IMG/VR virus record: IMGVR_UViG_2571042372_000009
Source: a virus
Taxonomy: Duplodnaviria > Heunggongvirae > Uroviricota > Caudoviricetes
Length of the DNA stretch: 16,793 nt
Reading direction: 5' to 3' (one strand)
A model generated the notes under the pieces. That model searched no databases. It had not been told where the DNA came from and saw only the letters and a list, made by a program, of their open reading frames with translations. The stretch's first letter is position 1. Every line of letters starts with the position of its first letter. The position numbers and the translations under genes are program-made. Below, in pieces: positions 6,583 to 15,245 of this stretch.

Positions 6583-6636
6583 TTTTATATTGGCGAGGTG
6601 ACGGGAGTTAAGTAGAATTGCTGCGGGTGCTTGAGG

Positions 6637-6672
6637 CTATCTGCCTCAGGCATGAACACCAAAGGCAGATAG
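6637..6672 (+). promoter_or_regulatory. Perfect 10-bp inverted repeat (CTATCTGCCT ... AGGCAGATAG) in the hok/mok leader
   Basis: Arms at 6637-6646 and 6663-6672 with a 16-nt spacer. Candidate hok mRNA fold-back or antisense-target element, or a protein operator. Confidence 0.4.
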
Positions 6673-6793
6673 AGAAAAGCCCCAGTTAATATTACGCGTC
6701 CTGCAAGACGCTTAACATTAATCTGAGGCTCAATCTATGAACGGCAAATCTAGGTTAGCCTCTTACGTGCCGAAAGGCAAGGAGAAGCAGGCT

Positions 6794-6949
6794 ATGAAGC
6801 AGCAAAAGGCGATGTTAATCGCCCTGATCGTCATCTGTTTAACCGTCATAGTGACGGCACTGGTAACGAGGAAAGACCTCTGCGAGGTACGAATCCGAAC
6901 CGGCCAGACGGAGGTCGCTGTCTTCACAGTTTACGAACCTGAGGAGTAA
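6794..6949 (+). CDS. hokD: Hok/Gef family type I toxin (HokD/RelF-like), 51 aa, nested in the mok frame that starts at 6737
   Basis: MKQQKAMLIALIVICLTVIVTALVTRKDLCEVRIRTGQTEVAVFTVYEPEE matches the Hok/Gef family as recalled. The overlapping upstream in-frame extension (70-aa ORF from 6737) is mok-like. A stable 3' hairpin follows. Confidence 0.85.
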   Translation: MKQQKAMLIALIVICLTVIVTALVTRKDLCEVRIRTGQTEVAVFTVYEPEE

Positions 6950-11319: not shown

Positions 11320-11395
11320 GGCCCTTTAGCTCAGTGGTGAGAGCGAGCGACTCATAATCGCCAGGTCGCTGGTTCAAATCCAGCAAGGGCCACCA
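11320..11395 (+). tRNA. tRNA with CAU anticodon (Ile2/lysidine type or Met), 76 nt
   Basis: Manual fold: acceptor GGCCCTT/AAGGGCC, D-arm GCTC/GAGC, anticodon loop CTCATAA, T-loop TTCAAAT, 3' CCA encoded. Resembles ileX/ileZ-type genes as recalled. Confidence 0.85.
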
Positions 11396-11402
11396 TCACA
11401 TA

Positions 11403-11479
11403 CCGCCATTAGCTCATCAGGAAAGAGCGCCAGCCTTCGAAGCTGGTTGCGCGGAGTTCGGGTCCCCGAAGGCGGTCCA
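11403..11479 (+). tRNA. tRNA-Arg (UCG anticodon), atypical, 77 nt
   Basis: Manual fold: anticodon stem CCAGC/GCTGG with loop CTTCGAA. One acceptor-stem mismatch (A6/A67), one T-stem mismatch, and T-loop TTCGGGT with G at the usually conserved A58 position. CCA encoded. Confidence 0.6.
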
Positions 11480-11492
11480 TTATCTGTATCCT

Positions 11493-11569
11493 GCGTTGTT
11501 AGCTCAGCCGGACAGAGCAATTGCCTTCTAAGCAATCGGTCACTGGTTCGAATCCAGTACAACGCGCCA
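11493..11569 (+). tRNA. tRNA-Arg (UCU anticodon), 77 nt
   Basis: Manual fold: perfect acceptor stem GCGTTGT/ACAACGC, anticodon stem ATTGC/GCAAT with loop CTTCTAA, T-loop TTCGAAT, CCA encoded. Confidence 0.85.
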
Positions 11570-11614: not shown

Positions 11615-11830
11615 CTCACAATTCAGGCGGTTGACTGTTGTCTGGTTTGCGGGGAGTTTGTTAAAAGAAACTGGCATGGTGAATCCCCCTGTGCGGAGGG
11701 GCAATCAGCGAGTAGGTATATGGGATAATCGCGGATTCAGGTGCTGGTACTGAATTCACCGGGAGGCACCCGGCACCATGCAATGGCACATAGCGCCACT
11801 CTCCAGCCCCTCTCCGGAGGGGCTTTTCTG
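11615..11830 (+). ncRNA. Candidate structured noncoding RNA module, copy A
   Basis: Begins just after a terminator with CTCACAATTCAG...TTGACT. Contains three hairpins (CCCCCT-gtgcgg-AGGGG; CCGGG-aggca-CCCGG; GCCCCTC-tccg-GAGGGGC followed by TTTTCT). The same architecture recurs in copy B while the ORFs are not conserved. Confidence 0.4.
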
Positions 11831-12082
11831 TGCCGGATACATCACAGTTTCTGGAACCTTAGGTACTACAGTATCAGTCAGGGTGCTATATTTTCAGATG
11901 TGATGAAAGCCTGTCAGCAGGCAGGGCGTATCGGAAATGACCCAGTAGAGAAAACGTTGACTCAGATACCGGTGCTGAGTTACCGGGAAACCGGCATCAC
12001 ATGACCGCTATCCTTCCAGGCCCATCCGCTCCGGTGGGCCTTTTTACTGCAGAAAACAGGTTCCCCGTTAAATGCTATGTTG

Positions 12083-12317
12083 CTCACAATTCAGTAAGTT
12101 GACAGTTGCCTGTCAGACTGGGCATTTGTTAAAAAAATTTCGCATGGTGAATCCCCCTGAGCGGAGGGGCGACTGGTGACGGTATAATCTCTGATTATCA
12201 AAACGAGAATGACGCGGGTTTAGTGGCACCGGGCTGAACTCACCGGGAGGCACCCGGCACCATGTGCATGATGATACAGATACGCGGCTTTAGCCCCTCT
12301 CCGGAGGGGTTTTCTTG
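12083..12317 (+). ncRNA. Candidate structured noncoding RNA module, copy B (divergent paralogue of copy A)
   Basis: CTCACAATTCAG...TTGACA start, the same three hairpins with conserved stems, and a terminal GCCCCTC-tccg-GAGGGG + TTTTCTT terminator. Preceded by another terminator (GGCCCA...TGGGCC + T5 at about 12019-12045). Confidence 0.4.
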
Positions 12318-12544
12318 TGGGCAAAAAAAGCCCGCGCTGGGAGACGCGGGCGGCAAGGAATAAACAATAAAACGTGAAGTAATATTTCAGCTGGCGAATA
12401 ATACCCCATAGTAATCACTCTGCGCAACTGCGCGGTCTTTTTCGAATTGCGGGCTGTCGTCTCTCTTCTGCCATTGTCCTGTAACTTCCGGACTTCAGCC
12501 CGCTCCTTATTTTACTCACAATATTATCCCGGCCGGGAGGATTC

Positions 12545-13040: not shown

Positions 13041-13256
13041 ATGGACCAGATGGAAAAAATCACAACAGGTGTGTCATACACCACGTCAGCGGTGGGAACG
13101 GGCTACTGGTTCCTGCAGTTGCTGGACAGGGTTTCCCCGTCTCAGTGGGCGGCAATAGGCGTGCTGGGGAGTCTGCTGTTTGGGCTGCTGACATATCTGA
13201 CTAACCTGTATTTCAAAATCAGAGAGGACCGTCGTAAGGCGGCACGGGGAGAGTAA
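13041..13256 (+). CDS. S: Holin, class II pinholin (phage 21 S-like), 71 aa with dual-start motif
   Basis: MDQMEK... gives Met1 and Met4 starts (71 and 68 aa), as recalled for S21. Two hydrophobic segments and a charged C-terminus [13 protein letters not shown]. Followed by a SAR endolysin. Confidence 0.85.
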
Positions 13257-13260
13257 TTCA

Positions 13261-13605
13261 ATGACTCAAAACTATGAACTGATTGTGAAAGGGATCCGCA
13301 ATTTTGAGAATAAAGTTACGGTAACTTTAGCATTACAGGACAAAGAACGCTTTGACGGTGAAATTTTTGACCTGGACATCTCGCTGGACCGTGTTGAAGG
13401 TGCTGCGCTGGAGTTTTATGAGGCAGCGGCCAGAAGGAGCATCAGACAGGTCTTCCTGGATGTCGCTGCCGGGTTATGTGAAGGGGATGAGCAGTCGCCG
13501 GAAAAGCGCCCCGTAATTTTAGAGGCGCAGAATGTATGGATAACCTACAAAGGAAAGCTACCGGGAAGGATTACTGGTTCCCTGAAGACTCCGCCGAAAT
13601 GGTAG
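13261..13605 (+). CDS. Hypothetical protein between holin and endolysin (YdfR/DUF1327-like by position), 114 aa
   Basis: ATG four nt after the holin stop, with GGGAGAG upstream. Naming is from recall of the essQ-ydfR-rrrQ arrangement and is tentative. Confidence 0.55.
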   Translation: MTQNYELIVKGIRNFENKVTVTLALQDKERFDGEIFDLDISLDRVEGAALEFYEAAARRSIRQVFLDVAAGLCEGDEQSPEKRPVILEAQNVWITYKGKLPGRITGSLKTPPKW

Positions 13606-13843
13606 TTTTGCCAGCATAATTTTCTTCCAGCAATGCCGCCAGCCACTTGAAAGAATTTTGTTGTTCCTGGGACCATTTGGGGTTGCGTGATTCAAAATGA
13701 ATGGATGCCAGCGTTGGCAGCATTTGCTCCCTGGGAATTGATAAGGCCAGATGTGAAAATGCAACAGTGAGGGCATTTACATCATCCCGAAGCCTGGAAA
13801 TGCAGTCGAGCAACTCCTGTAGAGAAATGGTGCTATTGTCCAT
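13571..13843 (-). CDS. Hypothetical protein, 90 aa, convergent with and overlapping the 3' end of the previous gene
   Basis: Good SD (AAGAGGA) upstream of the ATG on the minus strand. Helical-looking product. Overlaps 13571-13605 of the plus-strand ORF, so one of the two may be spurious. Confidence 0.35.
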   Translation of the reverse strand: MDNSTISLQELLDCISRLRDDVNALTVAFSHLALSIPREQMLPTLASIHFESRNPKWSQEQQNSFKWLAALLEENYAGKTTISAESSGNQ

Positions 13844-13948: not shown

Positions 13949-14482
13949 ATGAACGCAAAAATCAAATACGGCCTGTCAGCTGCAGTTCTGGCGCTGATTG
14001 GAGCAGGCGCATCAGCTCCTCAGATACTTGACCAGTTTCTGGATGAAAAAGAGGGTAACCACACTACGGCATACCGCGATGGTTCCGGCAACTGGACCAT
14101 CTGTCGGGGGGCCACGATGGTGGATGGAAAACCCGTTTTTCCCGGTATGAAACTGTCGAAGGAAAAATGCGACCAGGTCAACGCCATTGAGCGTGATAAG
14201 GCGCTGGCATGGGTGGAGAAAAACATCAAAGTGCCATTGAGCGAACCCCAGAAAGCGGGGATCGCGTCATTCTGTCCGTACAACATTGGTCCCGGTAAGT
14301 GTTTCCCGTCGACGTTTTATAAACGAATTAATGCAGGTGATCGCAGGGGAGCGTGTGAGGCGATTCGCTGGTGGATTAAGGACGGTGGCAGAGACTGCCG
14401 TATTCGTTCAAACAACTGCTACGGTCAGGTATCCCGTCGTGACCAGGAGAGCGCGCTGGCGTGCTGGGGTATCGACAGATAA
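13949..14482 (+). CDS. R: SAR endolysin (T4-lysozyme-like muramidase, phage 21 R-like), 177 aa
   Basis: N-terminal signal-anchor-release segment KYGLSAAVLALIGAGASAP and catalytic E-x8-D-x5-T triad (EGNHTTAYRDGSGNWT). Confidence 0.9.
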   Translation: MNAKIKYGLSAAVLALIGAGASAPQILDQFLDEKEGNHTTAYRDGSGNWTICRGATMVDGKPVFPGMKLSKEKCDQVNAIERDKALAWVEKNIKVPLSEPQKAGIASFCPYNIGPGKCFPSTFYKRINAGDRRGACEAIRWWIKDGGRDCRIRSNNCYGQVSRRDQESALACWGIDR

Positions 14483-14575
14483 GCAGAATATTTTGCTGAA
14501 AAATAAGGCATGGCCACGCGGGCGGATAACATGAAATCCTGCGAAGTGGCGAAACGTAAGTGAATAAAAGTAAAA

Positions 14576-14610
14576 ACCCCGTTTGTTGGCACCAAGCGGG
14601 GTTTTGTGTT
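14576..14610 (+). terminator. Putative intrinsic terminator after the endolysin gene
   Basis: ACCCCG...CGGGGT hairpin with a long loop, followed by TTTTGTGTTT. Confidence 0.45.
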
Positions 14611-14680
14611 TCCTGACTCCGGAAAAGTCAAAGGAGAAAGTGTGTTTGATTTTAGCAAACTGATTCGGGAGATTCGAGTG

Positions 14681-14779
14681 ATGGCTGAAAAATTATCCAC
14701 CTGGAAGTTCATTCTTATCTGGCTGGTGTTTGTGATTATGGCCTCTGGTTATTTCATCGGTCAGATACGCTGGTGGTGA
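14681..14779 (+). CDS. Candidate small membrane peptide, 32 aa, between endolysin and Rz
   Basis: ATG with GGGAG nine nt upstream. Product [32 protein letters not shown] is one transmembrane helix. Its stop TGA is followed one nt later by the Rz ATG (TGAAATG). Under 60 aa, so absent from the ORF track. Confidence 0.35.
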
Positions 14780-14780
14780 A

Positions 14781-15245
14781 ATGAACCGCGTACTGTGCGT
14801 GGTCATCATTGCCCTGCTGGTGGCCTGTGGTGCGCTTAGTCTGGGGCTGAATCATTACCGTGATAACGCCATTACCTACAAAGCCCAGCGCGACAAAAAT
14901 GTCAGAGAACTGAAGCTGGCGAACGCGGCAATTACTGACATGCAGATGCGTCAGCGTGATGTTGCTGCGCTCGATGCAAAATACACGAAGGAGTTAGCTG
15001 ATGCGAAAGCTGAAAATGATGCTCTGCGTGATGATGTTGCCGCTGGTCGTCGTCGGTTGCACATCAAAGCAGTCTGTCAGTCAGTGCGTGAAGCCACCAC
15101 CGCCTCCGGCGTGGATAATGCAGCCTCCCCCCGACTGGCAGACACCGCTGAACGGGATTATTTCACCCTCAGAGCGCGACTGATAATAATGCAAAAACAA
15201 CTTGAAGGGGCACAGCTATACATTCGAGAGCAATGCCTCAGATAA
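14781..15245 (+). CDS. Rz: Spanin inner-membrane subunit Rz (i-spanin), 154 aa
   Basis: N-terminal transmembrane segment, coiled-coil-like body, and an embedded Rz1 gene in the +1 frame. Confidence 0.85.
15001..15183 (+). CDS. Rz1: Spanin outer-membrane lipoprotein subunit Rz1 (o-spanin), 60 aa, embedded in Rz
   Basis: Signal peptide with lipobox VVGC and a proline-rich mature region ([13 protein letters not shown]), entirely inside Rz in another frame. Confidence 0.8.

What the first reader, a model, noticed from the sequence alone, without database searches (positions are those of the whole stretch)
14681..14779. Unannotated 32-aa transmembrane mini-ORF inserted between endolysin and Rz
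Between the endolysin terminator-like hairpin and Rz there is a 32-codon ORF with an SD. Its product is a single hydrophobic helix, and its stop is followed one nt later by the Rz start (TGAAATG), which suggests translational coupling. Canonical phage 21 and lambda cassettes have no gene here as far as I recall. It could be an extra lysis regulator or a membrane-acting moron.
Basis: seen in the sequence. Interest (0 to 1): 0.4.

Follow-up and report, generated by a model that had tools for sequence, protein, structure and literature searches.

The report
Phage small membrane protein cassette
The mini-ORF is real but is probably the last 32 codons of a conserved 45-residue phage membrane protein of unknown function, carried on a small portable cassette whose sequence strongly suggests control by a short, still undetected antisense RNA.

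Summary
ATG 14681 to TGA 14779 encodes 32 hydrophobic residues, and the Rz start follows one base after the stop.

The conserved gene is longer. GTG 14642, behind a strong SD, gives 45 aa. This matches PHROG 6632 (unknown function) end to end, and some RefSeq genomes annotate it as a hypothetical protein. Homologues of 44-51 aa occur across Enterobacterales and in an Azoarcus genome. The frame is kept and selection is purifying (codons 18-45: pS 0.76, pN 0.25).

The gene is not specific to lysis cassettes. The same cassette sits:
- between endolysin and spanin in at least three cassette types;
- in baseplate and tail operons;
- in toxin-antitoxin-rich prophage islands.

The cassette has a two-way terminator hairpin, an SD-pairing stem, the SD and then the ORF. 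Both stems covary. Synonymous change is suppressed in codons 2-17. Codons 3-6 hold a minus-strand extended -10 (TGCTAAAAT) that persists where the amino acids differ, and a -10-like hexamer sits at the same spot before unrelated small membrane ORFs that share the leader.

I infer an antisense RNA of about 80 nt covering the SD and start codon, a layout like a type I toxin-antitoxin. The RNA, any toxicity and the biological role are all untested. No Rfam, Pfam or literature match was found.

The parts
14483..14780 (.). 298-bp insert between the endolysin stop and the Rz start. It is absent from K-12 DLP12 and Qin, where R and Rz overlap.
   Evidence: GC is 0.44 against 0.53 for R and Rz. A match is found in 2134 of 5426 complete E. 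coli genomes, and 1337 hold at least 80% of it.
14573..14605 (.). GC-rich hairpin with U-runs on both strands (a two-way intrinsic terminator). It marks the left end of the conserved cassette.
   Evidence: 13 pairs, + strand tail TTTTGTGTTT. The minus-strand tail is TTTTTACTTT. The stem covaries across homologues.
14609..14637 (+). Leader stem in which UUUCCU/GACU pairs with AGUC/AGGAGA, so the SD is sequestered. Most homologues have CCUUG-7 nt-CAAGG instead.
   Evidence: Fold. Helix 1 covaries: 3 of 5 pairs change on both sides and 100% of cells pair. Coordinated variants are CCUG/CAGG in L180 and CCUUCUG/CAGAAGG in L190.
14632..14637 (+). Shine-Dalgarno AGGAGA, with GGAG 5 nt before GTG 14642.
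   Evidence: Conserved as CAAGG(G)AGAA in all homologues.
14642..14779 (+). Conserved 45-aa ORF with a GTG start: [45 protein letters not shown]. It has an N-terminal amphipathic helix, a kink, a TM helix and a C-terminal RWW.
   Evidence: PGAP CDS WP_000459345.1. phrog_6632 matched 45/45. Homologues. Codon analysis. AlphaFold2 helices 4-17 and 20-44, pLDDT 81.5. Five K/R before the TM and one after.
14681..14779 (+). It may be a second start.
   Evidence: M14 is invariant in alignments A4 and A6. It is shifted or absent in several distant homologues. SD-like GGGAG at 14668-14672.
14649..14657 (-). Predicted extended -10 promoter TGCTAAAAT, embedded in codons 3-6 (GAT TTT AGC AAA).
   Evidence: It is the only TGNTAAAAT in the window. 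It is conserved as TGCTAAAAT, TGATAAAAT, TGCTAATAT, TGCTAATGT or TGCTAGAAT although the residues differ. TATACT or TAAAAT sits at the same spot in unrelated ORFs that share the leader. The Ser codon is AGC in 26 of 26 copies.
14563..14643 (-). Predicted cis-antisense RNA of about 80 nt: a 5' anti-SD tail, a stem-loop and a terminator. It has not been detected experimentally.
   Evidence: Fold -23.2 kcal/mol, z -3.4. Covariance model R1 scores it 71.5 bits. Pair counts. No Rfam family matches.
13041..13256 (+). Context: phage 21-type class II holin.
   Evidence: PF04971, E 3.7e-32. Annotated.
13949..14482 (+). Context: endolysin R (phage lysozyme family) with a hydrophobic N-terminal segment that resembles a signal-anchor-release (SAR) domain. 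SAR function was not tested.
   Evidence: PF00959, E 4e-24. Translation.
14781..15245 (+). Context: Rz (i-spanin). The embedded Rz1 lipoprotein ORF lies at 15001-15183.
   Evidence: PF03245, E 1.4e-52. Rz1-like ORF with an LVVVGC lipobox.

Best explanation
The region is a portable cassette of about 220 bp that rides in phage late operons.

Its protein product is a 45-residue single-pass inner-membrane protein (PHROG 6632). The N-terminal amphipathic helix should face the cytoplasm, with one TM helix and the C-terminal RWW at the periplasmic face.

Expression appears to be gated at the RNA level in three ways:
- a two-way terminator immediately upstream;
- a leader stem that hides the SD;
- most likely, a cis-antisense RNA of about 80 nt. 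It would start from an extended -10 promoter inside codons 3-6, run across the start codon and SD, and end at the same hairpin.

In a lysogen the antisense RNA and the terminator would keep the protein off. During late, antiterminated transcription the sense RNA would outrun the antisense RNA and run over its promoter, and the protein would be made.

This is the layout of a type I toxin-antitoxin, or of P22 sar/ant. I therefore take the protein to be a potentially harmful membrane-active accessory protein rather than a core lysis component.

Shown here: coding and conservation, the 45-aa extent, cassette mobility, covarying stems, and the excess nucleotide constraint with its promoter motif.
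Inferred only: that the RNA exists, how it regulates, the topology, any toxicity, and the biological role.
For: Coding:
- Homologues of 44-51 aa occur in Escherichia, Shigella, Enterobacter, Citrobacter, Klebsiella, Salmonella, Yersinia, Pantoea, Brenneria, Symbiopectobacterium and an Azoarcus genome.
- 177 of 183 copies held are intact.
- Codons 18-45 have pS 0.76 against pN 0.25. For example, window against L008 shows 10 synonymous and 5 non-synonymous differences.

Start site:
- Protein conservation begins at the GTG, and the upstream in-frame sequence diverges.
- GTG is the start in 26 of 26 unique copies.
- The PGAP call and the phrog_6632 profile both span 45 aa.

Mobility:
- The cassette lies between lysozyme, GH19 or M15 endolysins and Rz or DUF2570 spanins; between baseplate spike and gp25-like genes; in a tail-tip region; next to podovirus-like virion genes; and in ParE/RelB/YafQ/HicB/BrnT islands.
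- GC is 0.44 against 0.53 in the flanks.

RNA level:
- Codons 2-17 have pS 0.28 against 0.76 downstream.
- Ser5 is always AGC and Arg12 always CGA, whereas Arg43 uses four codons.
- The minus-strand T-A-n-n-n-T hexamer with a TG upstream is kept across changes of amino acid. In Azoarcus, Ser to Ile changes only the free 'n' base.
- Covariance model R1 finds the same leader in front of four ORFs unrelated to this family. Three of them (L009, the L190 second copy, the L192 second copy) carry TATACT or TAAAAT at the same spot. In the fourth (L010) TATACT lies about 25 nt further away, after an insertion.
- Both stems pair in 96.8% of cells, with 8 pairs changed on both sides; 0 of 500 shuffles reach this, and slid controls reach at most 63%.
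- The left boundary of conservation coincides with the minus-strand U-tract.
- G-U pairs that are tolerated only in the minus-strand RNA occur in L017 (two) and L191 (one).

In L190 the unit is tandemly duplicated, with a promoter-like site about 350 nt upstream. This is the usual look of type I loci.

Precedent: PasB is an 83-nt antisense sRNA between late tail genes that is expressed in EPEC lysogens (PMC8550237 Table S6).
Against: - I found no experimental detection of the antisense RNA or of the protein. It is absent from the Hfq-CRAC sRNA list for Sakai, where no peak in the table fell near the positions expected for an R-Rz gap. Only the two peaks beside Rz in Sp9 and Sp10 were fetched, and the cassette itself was not located in Sakai. 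It is also absent from the Sakai small-gene supplements, and E2348/69 lacks the cassette at the two prophages checked.
- The -35 is weak (TCGAAT, 3 of 6).
- TGNTAAAAT occurs about 0.85 times by chance in a window of this size, so the case rests on positional conservation.
- AU-rich early codons are favoured for translation initiation and could mimic a -10.
- Hairpins are strand-symmetric, and most are as stable or more stable on the + strand, so covariation does not choose the strand.
- In the window there is no room for a sense promoter between hairpin and SD, unlike classical type I toxins.
- A + strand terminator in the middle of baseplate operons is unexplained.
- Toxicity is untested.
Confidence: 0.5

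Rival explanations
1. It is an ordinary membrane moron, for example a superinfection-exclusion or envelope-modifying protein. The leader would work only in the sense direction: the hairpin stops upstream read-through and the stem lowers translation. There would be no antisense RNA, and the -10-like motif would be a by-product of AU-rich early codons.
For: Presence/absence polymorphism and low GC. Locations in late operons resemble known morons. Hairpins are at least as stable on the + strand in most copies, with good + strand U-tails. No sRNA has been reported here.
Against: A moron normally has its promoter upstream and its terminator downstream of the gene; here the terminator is upstream and no sense promoter fits. 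Synonymous constraint is specific to codons 2-17. The T-A-n-n-n-T pattern sits at a fixed distance in four unrelated ORF families. The Azoarcus copy has a poor + strand terminator (-12.1 against -22.2 kcal/mol; 3 against 6 U).
Confidence: 0.25
2. It is a dedicated lysis-cassette component: a regulator of pinholin, endolysin or spanin function or timing, translationally coupled to Rz. It might have long (45 aa) and short (32 aa) isoforms like a holin/antiholin pair.
For: 153 of 183 copies lie between R and Rz with a stop, one base, then ATG. The cassette sits between endolysin and i-spanin in at least three cassette types. Met14 is invariant in close homologues and has an SD-like GGGAG upstream. 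The R-Rz gap also hosts other small TM ORFs.
Against: Intact copies lie in baseplate, tail and virion operons and in toxin-antitoxin islands with no lysis genes nearby. K-12 DLP12 and Qin carry cassettes of this type without it. There is no charged C-terminal domain and no holin family match. The count of 153 reflects oversampling of E. coli prophages.
Confidence: 0.15
3. The main functional product is the small RNA, acting in trans on host or phage mRNAs as PasB, AgvB or AsxR do. The ORF would matter only secondarily.
For: The leader RNA is better conserved than the ORFs behind it and is shared by unrelated ORFs. Prophage late-region antisense sRNAs with many targets are known (PMC8550237, PMC4104026). 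The spacer between the stems is A/G-rich.
Against: The ORF is under clear purifying selection along its whole length, including codons 18-45 that lie outside the promoter and the RNA. No Hfq peak at an R-Rz gap appears in the Sakai table.
Confidence: 0.07
4. It is a chance ORF in a non-coding spacer.
For: It is short, unannotated in many records, and has frameshifted copies.
Against: Length, frame and motifs are conserved across genera at 35-60% identity, with synonymous sites saturated and pN 0.25.
Confidence: 0.03

Closest known systems
SymE/SymR of E. coli (type I toxin-antitoxin; Kawano, Aravind and Storz 2007; from my own knowledge, cited in PMC3326304 ref 12)
   Same: A short cis-antisense RNA (about 77 nt) has its promoter inside the first codons of the target gene. 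It covers the SD and start codon and ends at a terminator just upstream.
   Different: SymE is a 113-aa soluble nuclease-like protein with its own SOS promoter. Here the target is a 45-aa membrane protein without its own promoter in the window. There is no sequence or Rfam similarity.
Small hydrophobic type I toxins with antisense RNAs (Hok/Sok, Ldr/Rdl, Ibs/Sib, ZorO/OrzO, TisB/IstR). A hok/sok copy lies in this same window at 6625-6799.
   Same: A hydrophobic single-TM peptide under 60 aa, a structured leader that hides the SD, a predicted antisense RNA of 60-100 nt, tandem duplicated copies in some genomes (L190), and a location in prophages and toxin-antitoxin islands.
   Different: No homology to any of them by Pfam or Rfam. 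Toxicity is untested. The terminator lies directly upstream of the SD. In phages the gene is fed by late-operon read-through rather than by its own promoter. The same leader is shared by several unrelated ORF families.
Phage P22 sar RNA / ant (from my own knowledge)
   Same: A phage antisense RNA of 68-69 nt, made from a promoter in the 5' end of the target gene. It is complementary to the RBS in an intercistronic region, and it interacts with convergent transcription from the strong sense promoter.
   Different: Ant is a soluble antirepressor in the immI region, not a small membrane protein in a late operon. The sequences are unrelated.
PasB sRNA of EPEC E2348/69 (PMC8550237; bioRxiv 10.64898/2026.05.13.724894)
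   Same: An 83-nt RNA with a terminator, antisense to the late operon, in an intergenic gap between two late genes (tail I and J). It is expressed in the lysogen (Northern blot).
   Different: The sequence and position differ. It lies opposite a 22-codon non-hydrophobic ORF, is Hfq-dependent and has many trans partners. Model R1 did not hit that locus, L186.
Morons of lambdoid phages, e.g. HK97 gp15, an inner-membrane superinfection-exclusion protein (from my own knowledge)
   Same: A small membrane protein gene inserted between late genes, present in some phages and absent in others, with deviant GC.
   Different: Classical morons have a promoter upstream and a terminator downstream and are expressed from the prophage. 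Here the terminator is upstream and the only promoter-like element points the other way.
Dual-start holin/antiholin pairs (lambda S107/S105, phage 21 S71/S68; from my own knowledge)
   Same: Two in-frame starts (GTG 14642 and ATG 14681) would give long and short forms that differ in a charged N-terminal segment. The window copy lies in a lysis cassette.
   Different: The starts are 13 codons apart rather than 2-3. There is one TM helix and no charged C-terminal tail. There is no holin family match, and the gene also occurs outside lysis cassettes.

Membership tests
PHROG 6632 (45-aa phage protein family, unknown function) | Full-length match to the family profile | tested here: met
   E 1.2e-29, residues 1-45 on profile positions 1-45 of 45. 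The Pantoea-type homologue also matches (E 2.7e-22).
PHROG 6632 (45-aa phage protein family, unknown function) | Shared architecture: N-terminal xDFSKLIRExRxMxEKLxxW(K/R)F, one TM helix, C-terminal (I/V)RWW | tested here: met
   Alignments A1-A4 and A6. Distant members.
Type I toxin-antitoxin system | Small (under 60 aa) hydrophobic protein with a TM helix | tested here: met
   45 aa. Kyte-Doolittle mean 2.13 over residues 24-42. AlphaFold2 helix 20-44.
Type I toxin-antitoxin system | An antisense RNA that base-pairs with the toxin mRNA | tested here: inconclusive
   A conserved minus-strand extended -10, a terminator and synonymous-site constraint predict one. No transcript data were found.
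Type I toxin-antitoxin system | Toxin gene with its own promoter and a long structured 5' UTR | tested here: not met
   In the window only about 36 nt separate the hairpin from the start codon, and no + strand promoter-like site lies upstream of the ORF. In L190 a promoter-like site lies about 350 nt upstream, so this feature depends on context.
Type I toxin-antitoxin system | Growth arrest or membrane damage on overexpression, relieved by the RNA | not testable with these tools
   Needs experiments.
Type I toxin-antitoxin system | Homology to a described toxin or antitoxin family | tested here: not met
   No Pfam, NCBIfam or PADLOC match for the protein. No Rfam match for the RNA in the window or in 12 loci.
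Holin / antiholin | Match to a holin family, with TM helices plus a charged hydrophilic C-terminal tail | tested here: not met
   No holin family match. The C-terminus is only RWW.
Holin / antiholin | Obligate location in a lysis cassette | tested here: not met
   Intact copies lie in baseplate, tail and virion operons and in toxin-antitoxin islands.
Moron (autonomous promoter-gene-terminator unit in a late operon) | Insertion between two late genes, present or absent among related phages, with deviant base composition | tested here: met
Moron (autonomous promoter-gene-terminator unit in a late operon) | Own sense promoter upstream and terminator downstream of the gene | tested here: not met
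   The terminator is upstream. The stop is followed after one base by the Rz start. No upstream sense promoter-like site was found.

The most novel reading that the evidence does not exclude
The conserved unit is not the protein but an RNA gate of about 80 nt (antisense promoter, anti-SD, stem-loop and two-way terminator). It would act as a universal holder for interchangeable small membrane proteins from at least four unrelated ORF families. That would let temperate phages carry otherwise harmful membrane-active peptides inside late operons, silent in the lysogen and released only when late transcription overwhelms the gate. This would be an undescribed, widespread superfamily of type I toxin-antitoxin-like modules. 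A match to the cassette occurs in about 39% of complete E. coli genomes, and it is also present outside Enterobacterales. Its payloads might tune lysis timing or abort superinfection.
Probability: 0.3. Interest if true: 0.75.

Novelty: new member of a known kind. Interest (0 to 1): 0.55.

Why it matters
A match to this insert occurs in about 39% of complete E. coli genomes, including Shiga-toxin phages, UPEC and APEC prophages, and about 25% hold at least 80% of it. It is often unannotated or called at three different lengths, and nothing is known about its function.

If the antisense gating is real, it adds a new and very common family to the type I toxin-antitoxin-like systems. It would also be an example of phages insulating a membrane-active peptide within a late operon. 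It further implies that the endolysin-spanin junction of phage 21-type cassettes is a docking site for a set of small membrane proteins that share one RNA leader.

In practical terms, it argues for annotating the 45-aa GTG-start CDS consistently, and for looking for an sRNA here in STEC and ExPEC transcriptomes.

Tried and rejected
- Pfam, NCBIfam and PADLOC gave nothing for the protein. The only Pfam hit was a spurious TM match to Epiglycanin_C, E 0.07.
- Rfam gave nothing for the region beyond weak terminator-like hits (rimP leader 24.7 bits, RsmY 12.6 bits), and nothing in 12 related loci.
- The scanner's minus-strand promoter-like site inside the ORF (CTGACC-18-CATAAT, 14764 to 14735) was rejected, because the hexamers are not conserved in homologues.
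- I asked whether the predicted RNA is PasB, PasA or PasC of EPEC, or an EcOnc sRNA of Sakai. PasB lies between tail genes I and J and has a different sequence. PasA and PasC lie upstream of the holin. E2348/69 prophages PP2 and PP5 have R overlapping Rz with no cassette. EcOnc11 and EcOnc12 lie just downstream of Rz.
- Literature searches by protein accession, peptide strings, type I toxin-antitoxin with lysis cassette, and small membrane protein with spanin or moron found no description. The peptide is absent from the Sakai small-gene supplements.
- Using G-U pairs and hairpin energies to decide the transcribed strand gave only weak support for the minus strand: three G-U pairs, and only Azoarcus is clearly asymmetric.
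- The HMMER scan of 1.84 billion representatives found no fusion to a larger domain that could hint at function.
- The AlphaFold2 model is a helix-kink-helix. I did not run a fold search, because matches to a 45-residue helix pair would be meaningless.
Full report
**1. The observation**

- ATG 14681 opens a 32-codon frame, [32 protein letters not shown].
- The frame ends at TGA 14777-14779. One A follows, then the Rz ATG at 14781 (TGAAATG).
- A GGGAG lies 8 nt upstream of the ATG.
- A 13-pair hairpin with a U-run lies at 14573-14605.
- The flanking genes are a phage 21-type holin (PF04971), a phage lysozyme and Rz (PF03245).
- In K-12 DLP12 and Qin, R and Rz overlap, so this 298-bp spacer is an insert. 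Its GC is 0.44 against 0.53 for both neighbours.

**2. The gene is longer than 32 codons and is not wholly unannotated**

- The frame stays open upstream. GTG 14642 lies 5 nt after the GGAG of AAAGGAGAA and gives 45 aa.
- PGAP annotates exactly this CDS (WP_000459345.1, hypothetical protein) in ATCC 11775. One Stx2a phage record calls a 72-aa version. H-19B and many genomes call nothing.
- The 45-aa form matches phrog_6632 (unknown function) over all 45 profile positions, E 1e-29.
- Pfam, NCBIfam and PADLOC have nothing.
- In alignments of database proteins called at different lengths, similarity starts at the residue after the GTG and is lost upstream.
- All 26 unique intact DNA copies begin with GTG, and two divergent ones begin with TTG.
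A second, shorter isoform cannot be excluded.

**3. It is a real protein-coding gene**

- Word-indexed and exhaustive HMMER searches find a small family of 44-51-aa proteins. There are 54 clusters at 50% identity, and none is fused to anything larger.
- Members occur in Escherichia, Shigella, Enterobacter, Citrobacter, Klebsiella, Salmonella, Yersinia, Pantoea, Brenneria, Symbiopectobacterium and an Azoarcus MAG.
- Length and frame are kept without indels in the Enterobacterales copies. Of 183 copies held, 177 are intact.
- Among 11 divergent representatives, codons 18-45 have synonymous sites near saturation (pS 0.76) and pN 0.25.
- The product has five K/R before the hydrophobic stretch and one after it, an amphipathic N-terminal segment (hydrophobic moment 0.59 for residues 4-21), and one TM segment.
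- AlphaFold2 gives helix 4-17, a break at 18-19 (Pro-Asn in most homologues), and helix 20-44, with mean pLDDT 81.5.
- An N-in/C-out topology is inferred from the positive-inside rule. It was not tested.

**4. It is a portable cassette, not a lysis-cassette fixture**

A match to the insert occurs in 2134 of 5426 complete E. coli genomes, and 1337 hold at least 80% of it. It also occurs in Stx1 and Stx2 phages.

Most copies held (153 of 183) lie between R and Rz with the same one-base spacing. This reflects heavy sampling of E. coli. The same cassette also lies:
- between GH19 or M15 endolysins and other spanins (Rz, DUF2570/LysC);
- between baseplate spike and gp25-like genes in E. coli, Yersinia, Salmonella and Pantoea prophages;
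- in a tail-tip region;
- beside podovirus-like virion genes in Azoarcus;
- for distant members, in prophage islands full of ParE/RelB, YafQ/RelB, HicB and BrnT genes.

A role tied specifically to pinholin, endolysin or spanin function is therefore unlikely.

**5. RNA-level features**

The conserved block starts about 75 nt before the start codon, at an A-tract. It runs through the hairpin, a short stem (usually CCUUG-7 nt-CAAGG; in the window UUUCCU/GACU with AGUC/AGGAGA) that pairs part of the SD, the SD itself, and then the ORF.

On a 13-sequence alignment the two stems pair in 96.8% of cells. Eight of 17 pairs change on both sides. None of 500 shuffles reaches the observed pairing or covariation score, and slid controls pair in at most 63% of cells. 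Coordinated variants include CCUG/CAGG (L180) and CCUUCUG/CAGAAGG (L190).

The 5' part of the ORF has far fewer synonymous changes than the rest.
- pS is 0.28 in codons 2-17 against 0.76 in codons 18-45.
- Asp3 is always GAT, Ser5 always AGC and Arg12 always CGA. Arg43 uses CGC, CGA, CGT and AGG, and the TM-region Ser, Gly, Val and Leu codons vary freely.

Read on the minus strand, codons 3-6 spell TGCTAAAAT, an extended -10. It is the only TGNTAAAAT in the window. The motif survives where the protein changes:
- TGATAAAAT in Azoarcus, where Ser to Ile alters only the unconstrained base;
- TGCTAATAT in L185 (DISK);
- TGCTAATGT in L189 (HISR);
- TGCTAGAAT in L190 (NSSK).

A covariance model of the leader (R1) also finds it in front of small membrane ORFs that are unrelated in sequence:

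| Locus | ORF | Model score | Minus-strand -10-like hexamer |
|---|---|---|---|
| L009 | 60 aa, phrog_1115 | 68 bits | TATACT at the same distance |
| L190, second copy | 58 aa | 77 bits | TATACT at the same distance |
| L192, second copy | 51 aa | 57 bits | TAAAAT at the same distance |
| L010 | 37 aa (further downstream) | 80 bits | TATACT about 25 nt further away, after an insertion |

A transcript from this promoter would start at about the start codon (14641-14643). It would be fully complementary to the start codon, the SD and the leader, and it would end at the hairpin's minus-strand U-tract (about 14563). The predicted RNA of about 80 nt folds into a free 5' anti-SD tail, a stem-loop and a terminator (-23.2 kcal/mol, z -3.4; homologues z -3.3 to -6.3).

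**6. How it most likely works**

The layout is that of SymR/symE and of P22 sar/ant (my own knowledge). More loosely, it is that of the small hydrophobic type I toxins, one of which (hok/sok) sits in this same window.

I therefore propose the following.
- In the lysogen, the upstream terminator, the SD-pairing stem and a constitutively made antisense RNA keep the 45-aa protein off.
- During Q-antiterminated late transcription, the sense RNA exceeds the antisense RNA and runs over its promoter, and the protein is made and inserted into the inner membrane.
- The tandem duplicated unit in L190, with a promoter-like site about 350 nt upstream, and the toxin-antitoxin-rich neighbourhoods fit a toxin-like payload.

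What the protein does is not shown. Membrane depolarisation that sharpens or advances holin triggering, abortive infection, exclusion, or something else all remain open.

**7. Weak points**

- No experiment I could find shows the RNA or the protein. No Hfq-CRAC peak in the Sakai table fell near the positions expected for an R-Rz gap. Only the two peaks beside Rz in Sp9 and Sp10 were fetched, and they lie just downstream of Rz. I did not locate the cassette in Sakai.
- The peptide is not in the Sakai small-gene supplements, and EPEC E2348/69 lacks the cassette where I checked.
- The -35 is weak, and AU-rich early codons could imitate a -10.
- Hairpins are strand-symmetric, and most are as stable or more stable on the + strand. 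Only Azoarcus (-22.2 against -12.1 kcal/mol) and three G-U pairs favour the minus strand.
- A good + strand terminator in the middle of baseplate operons is unexplained.
- In the window the ORF has no promoter of its own, unlike classical type I toxins.

**8. Comparison with known systems, and novelty**

- The protein belongs to PHROG 6632, which has no known function.
- No Rfam family covers the RNA, in the window or in 12 related loci.
- Literature searches found no description.
- PasB of EPEC is a different sequence at a different place. It does show that late-operon antisense sRNAs of this size are made in lysogens.
- I file the finding as a new, uncharacterised member of the kind 'small membrane protein with cis-antisense RNA control (type I toxin-antitoxin-like)'. 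Membership in type I toxin-antitoxins is not established: two defining features are untested or inconclusive, and two were not met (own promoter; homology).

**9. Verdict**

'Unannotated' and '32 aa' need correcting.
- My rough sub-confidences are: coding gene above 0.9; 45-aa GTG start about 0.75; antisense RNA about 0.55; toxin-like function about 0.3.
- Interest is 0.55. The cassette is common, conserved and unstudied, and it offers a clear and cheap experimental test.

Noticed in passing
window 13261-13605 (+) and 13571-13843 (-): Between the holin and the endolysin lie a YdfR/DUF1327 gene (114 aa, phrog_406) and a convergent 90-aa ORF on the other strand that overlaps its 3' end (phrog_2411, annotated as hypothetical). 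The pair recurs in other prophages (L001, L007). This is a second insert inside the lysis cassette, of unknown function.
   Followed up: partly
L009 1657-1985; L010 1722-1835; L007 1793-2141; L187 825-971: Other phage 21-type R-Rz gaps carry different small TM ORFs, sometimes in tandem: phrog_1115/4493/3246, phrog_4906, and 28-37-aa peptides. Several end in IRWW just before Rz, and some sit behind the same hairpin and leader. In Sakai Sp9 and Sp10 an antirepressor plus a 48-aa TM ORF occupy the gap.
   Followed up: partly
L190 1626-2135 and 2330-2879: A tandem duplicated unit of about 704 bp, of unknown source organism. Each copy has a promoter-like TTTACA-17-TATCAT site, about 350 nt of leader, the hairpin and leader element, and a small TM ORF ending in IRWW (44 and 58 aa). 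The N-termini are unrelated. ParE, RelB and YafQ genes flank the units.
   Followed up: partly
L184, L015, L013, L008 (about 80 nt upstream of the ORF): The cassette places a hairpin with a good + strand U-tail between baseplate spike and gp25-like genes of apparently intact P2/Mu-like tail operons. How the downstream baseplate genes are transcribed past it is unexplained.
   Followed up: no
window 6625-6799: A sok antitoxin RNA match (113 bits) lies next to ORF 6737-6949, so a hok/sok-type type I module appears to sit in the early region of the same prophage.
   Followed up: no
window 11320-11566, 11645-11835, 12113-12322: Three tRNA genes are followed by two copies of the sRNA family STnc100 (136 and 161 bits), upstream of the holin. 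A 2026 preprint relates STnc100 to the EPEC sRNA PasD.
   Followed up: no
L186 1962-2044 (NC_011601.1 1466261-1466343, minus strand): The validated EPEC sRNA PasB lies between tail genes I and J, antisense to the late operon, opposite a 22-codon ORF (MKINVKELFLLLGQKNTNAAKL). Its terminator abuts the stop of the upstream gene. The architecture parallels the cassette studied here.
   Followed up: partly
L187 1519-1567 and L188 1522-1569 (Sakai Sp10 and Sp9): The strong Hfq-CRAC peaks EcOnc11 and EcOnc12 of Tree et al. 2014 map antisense to the late operon, about 75 nt downstream of the Rz stop. This is a different late-region antisense RNA site.
   Followed up: no
L001 1969-2503 compared with window 13949-14482: RefSeq marks the endolysin of the ATCC 11775 prophage as a frameshifted pseudogene (535 nt). 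The window's copy is an intact 177-codon ORF, although the two sequences are identical over 14480-14800.
   Followed up: no
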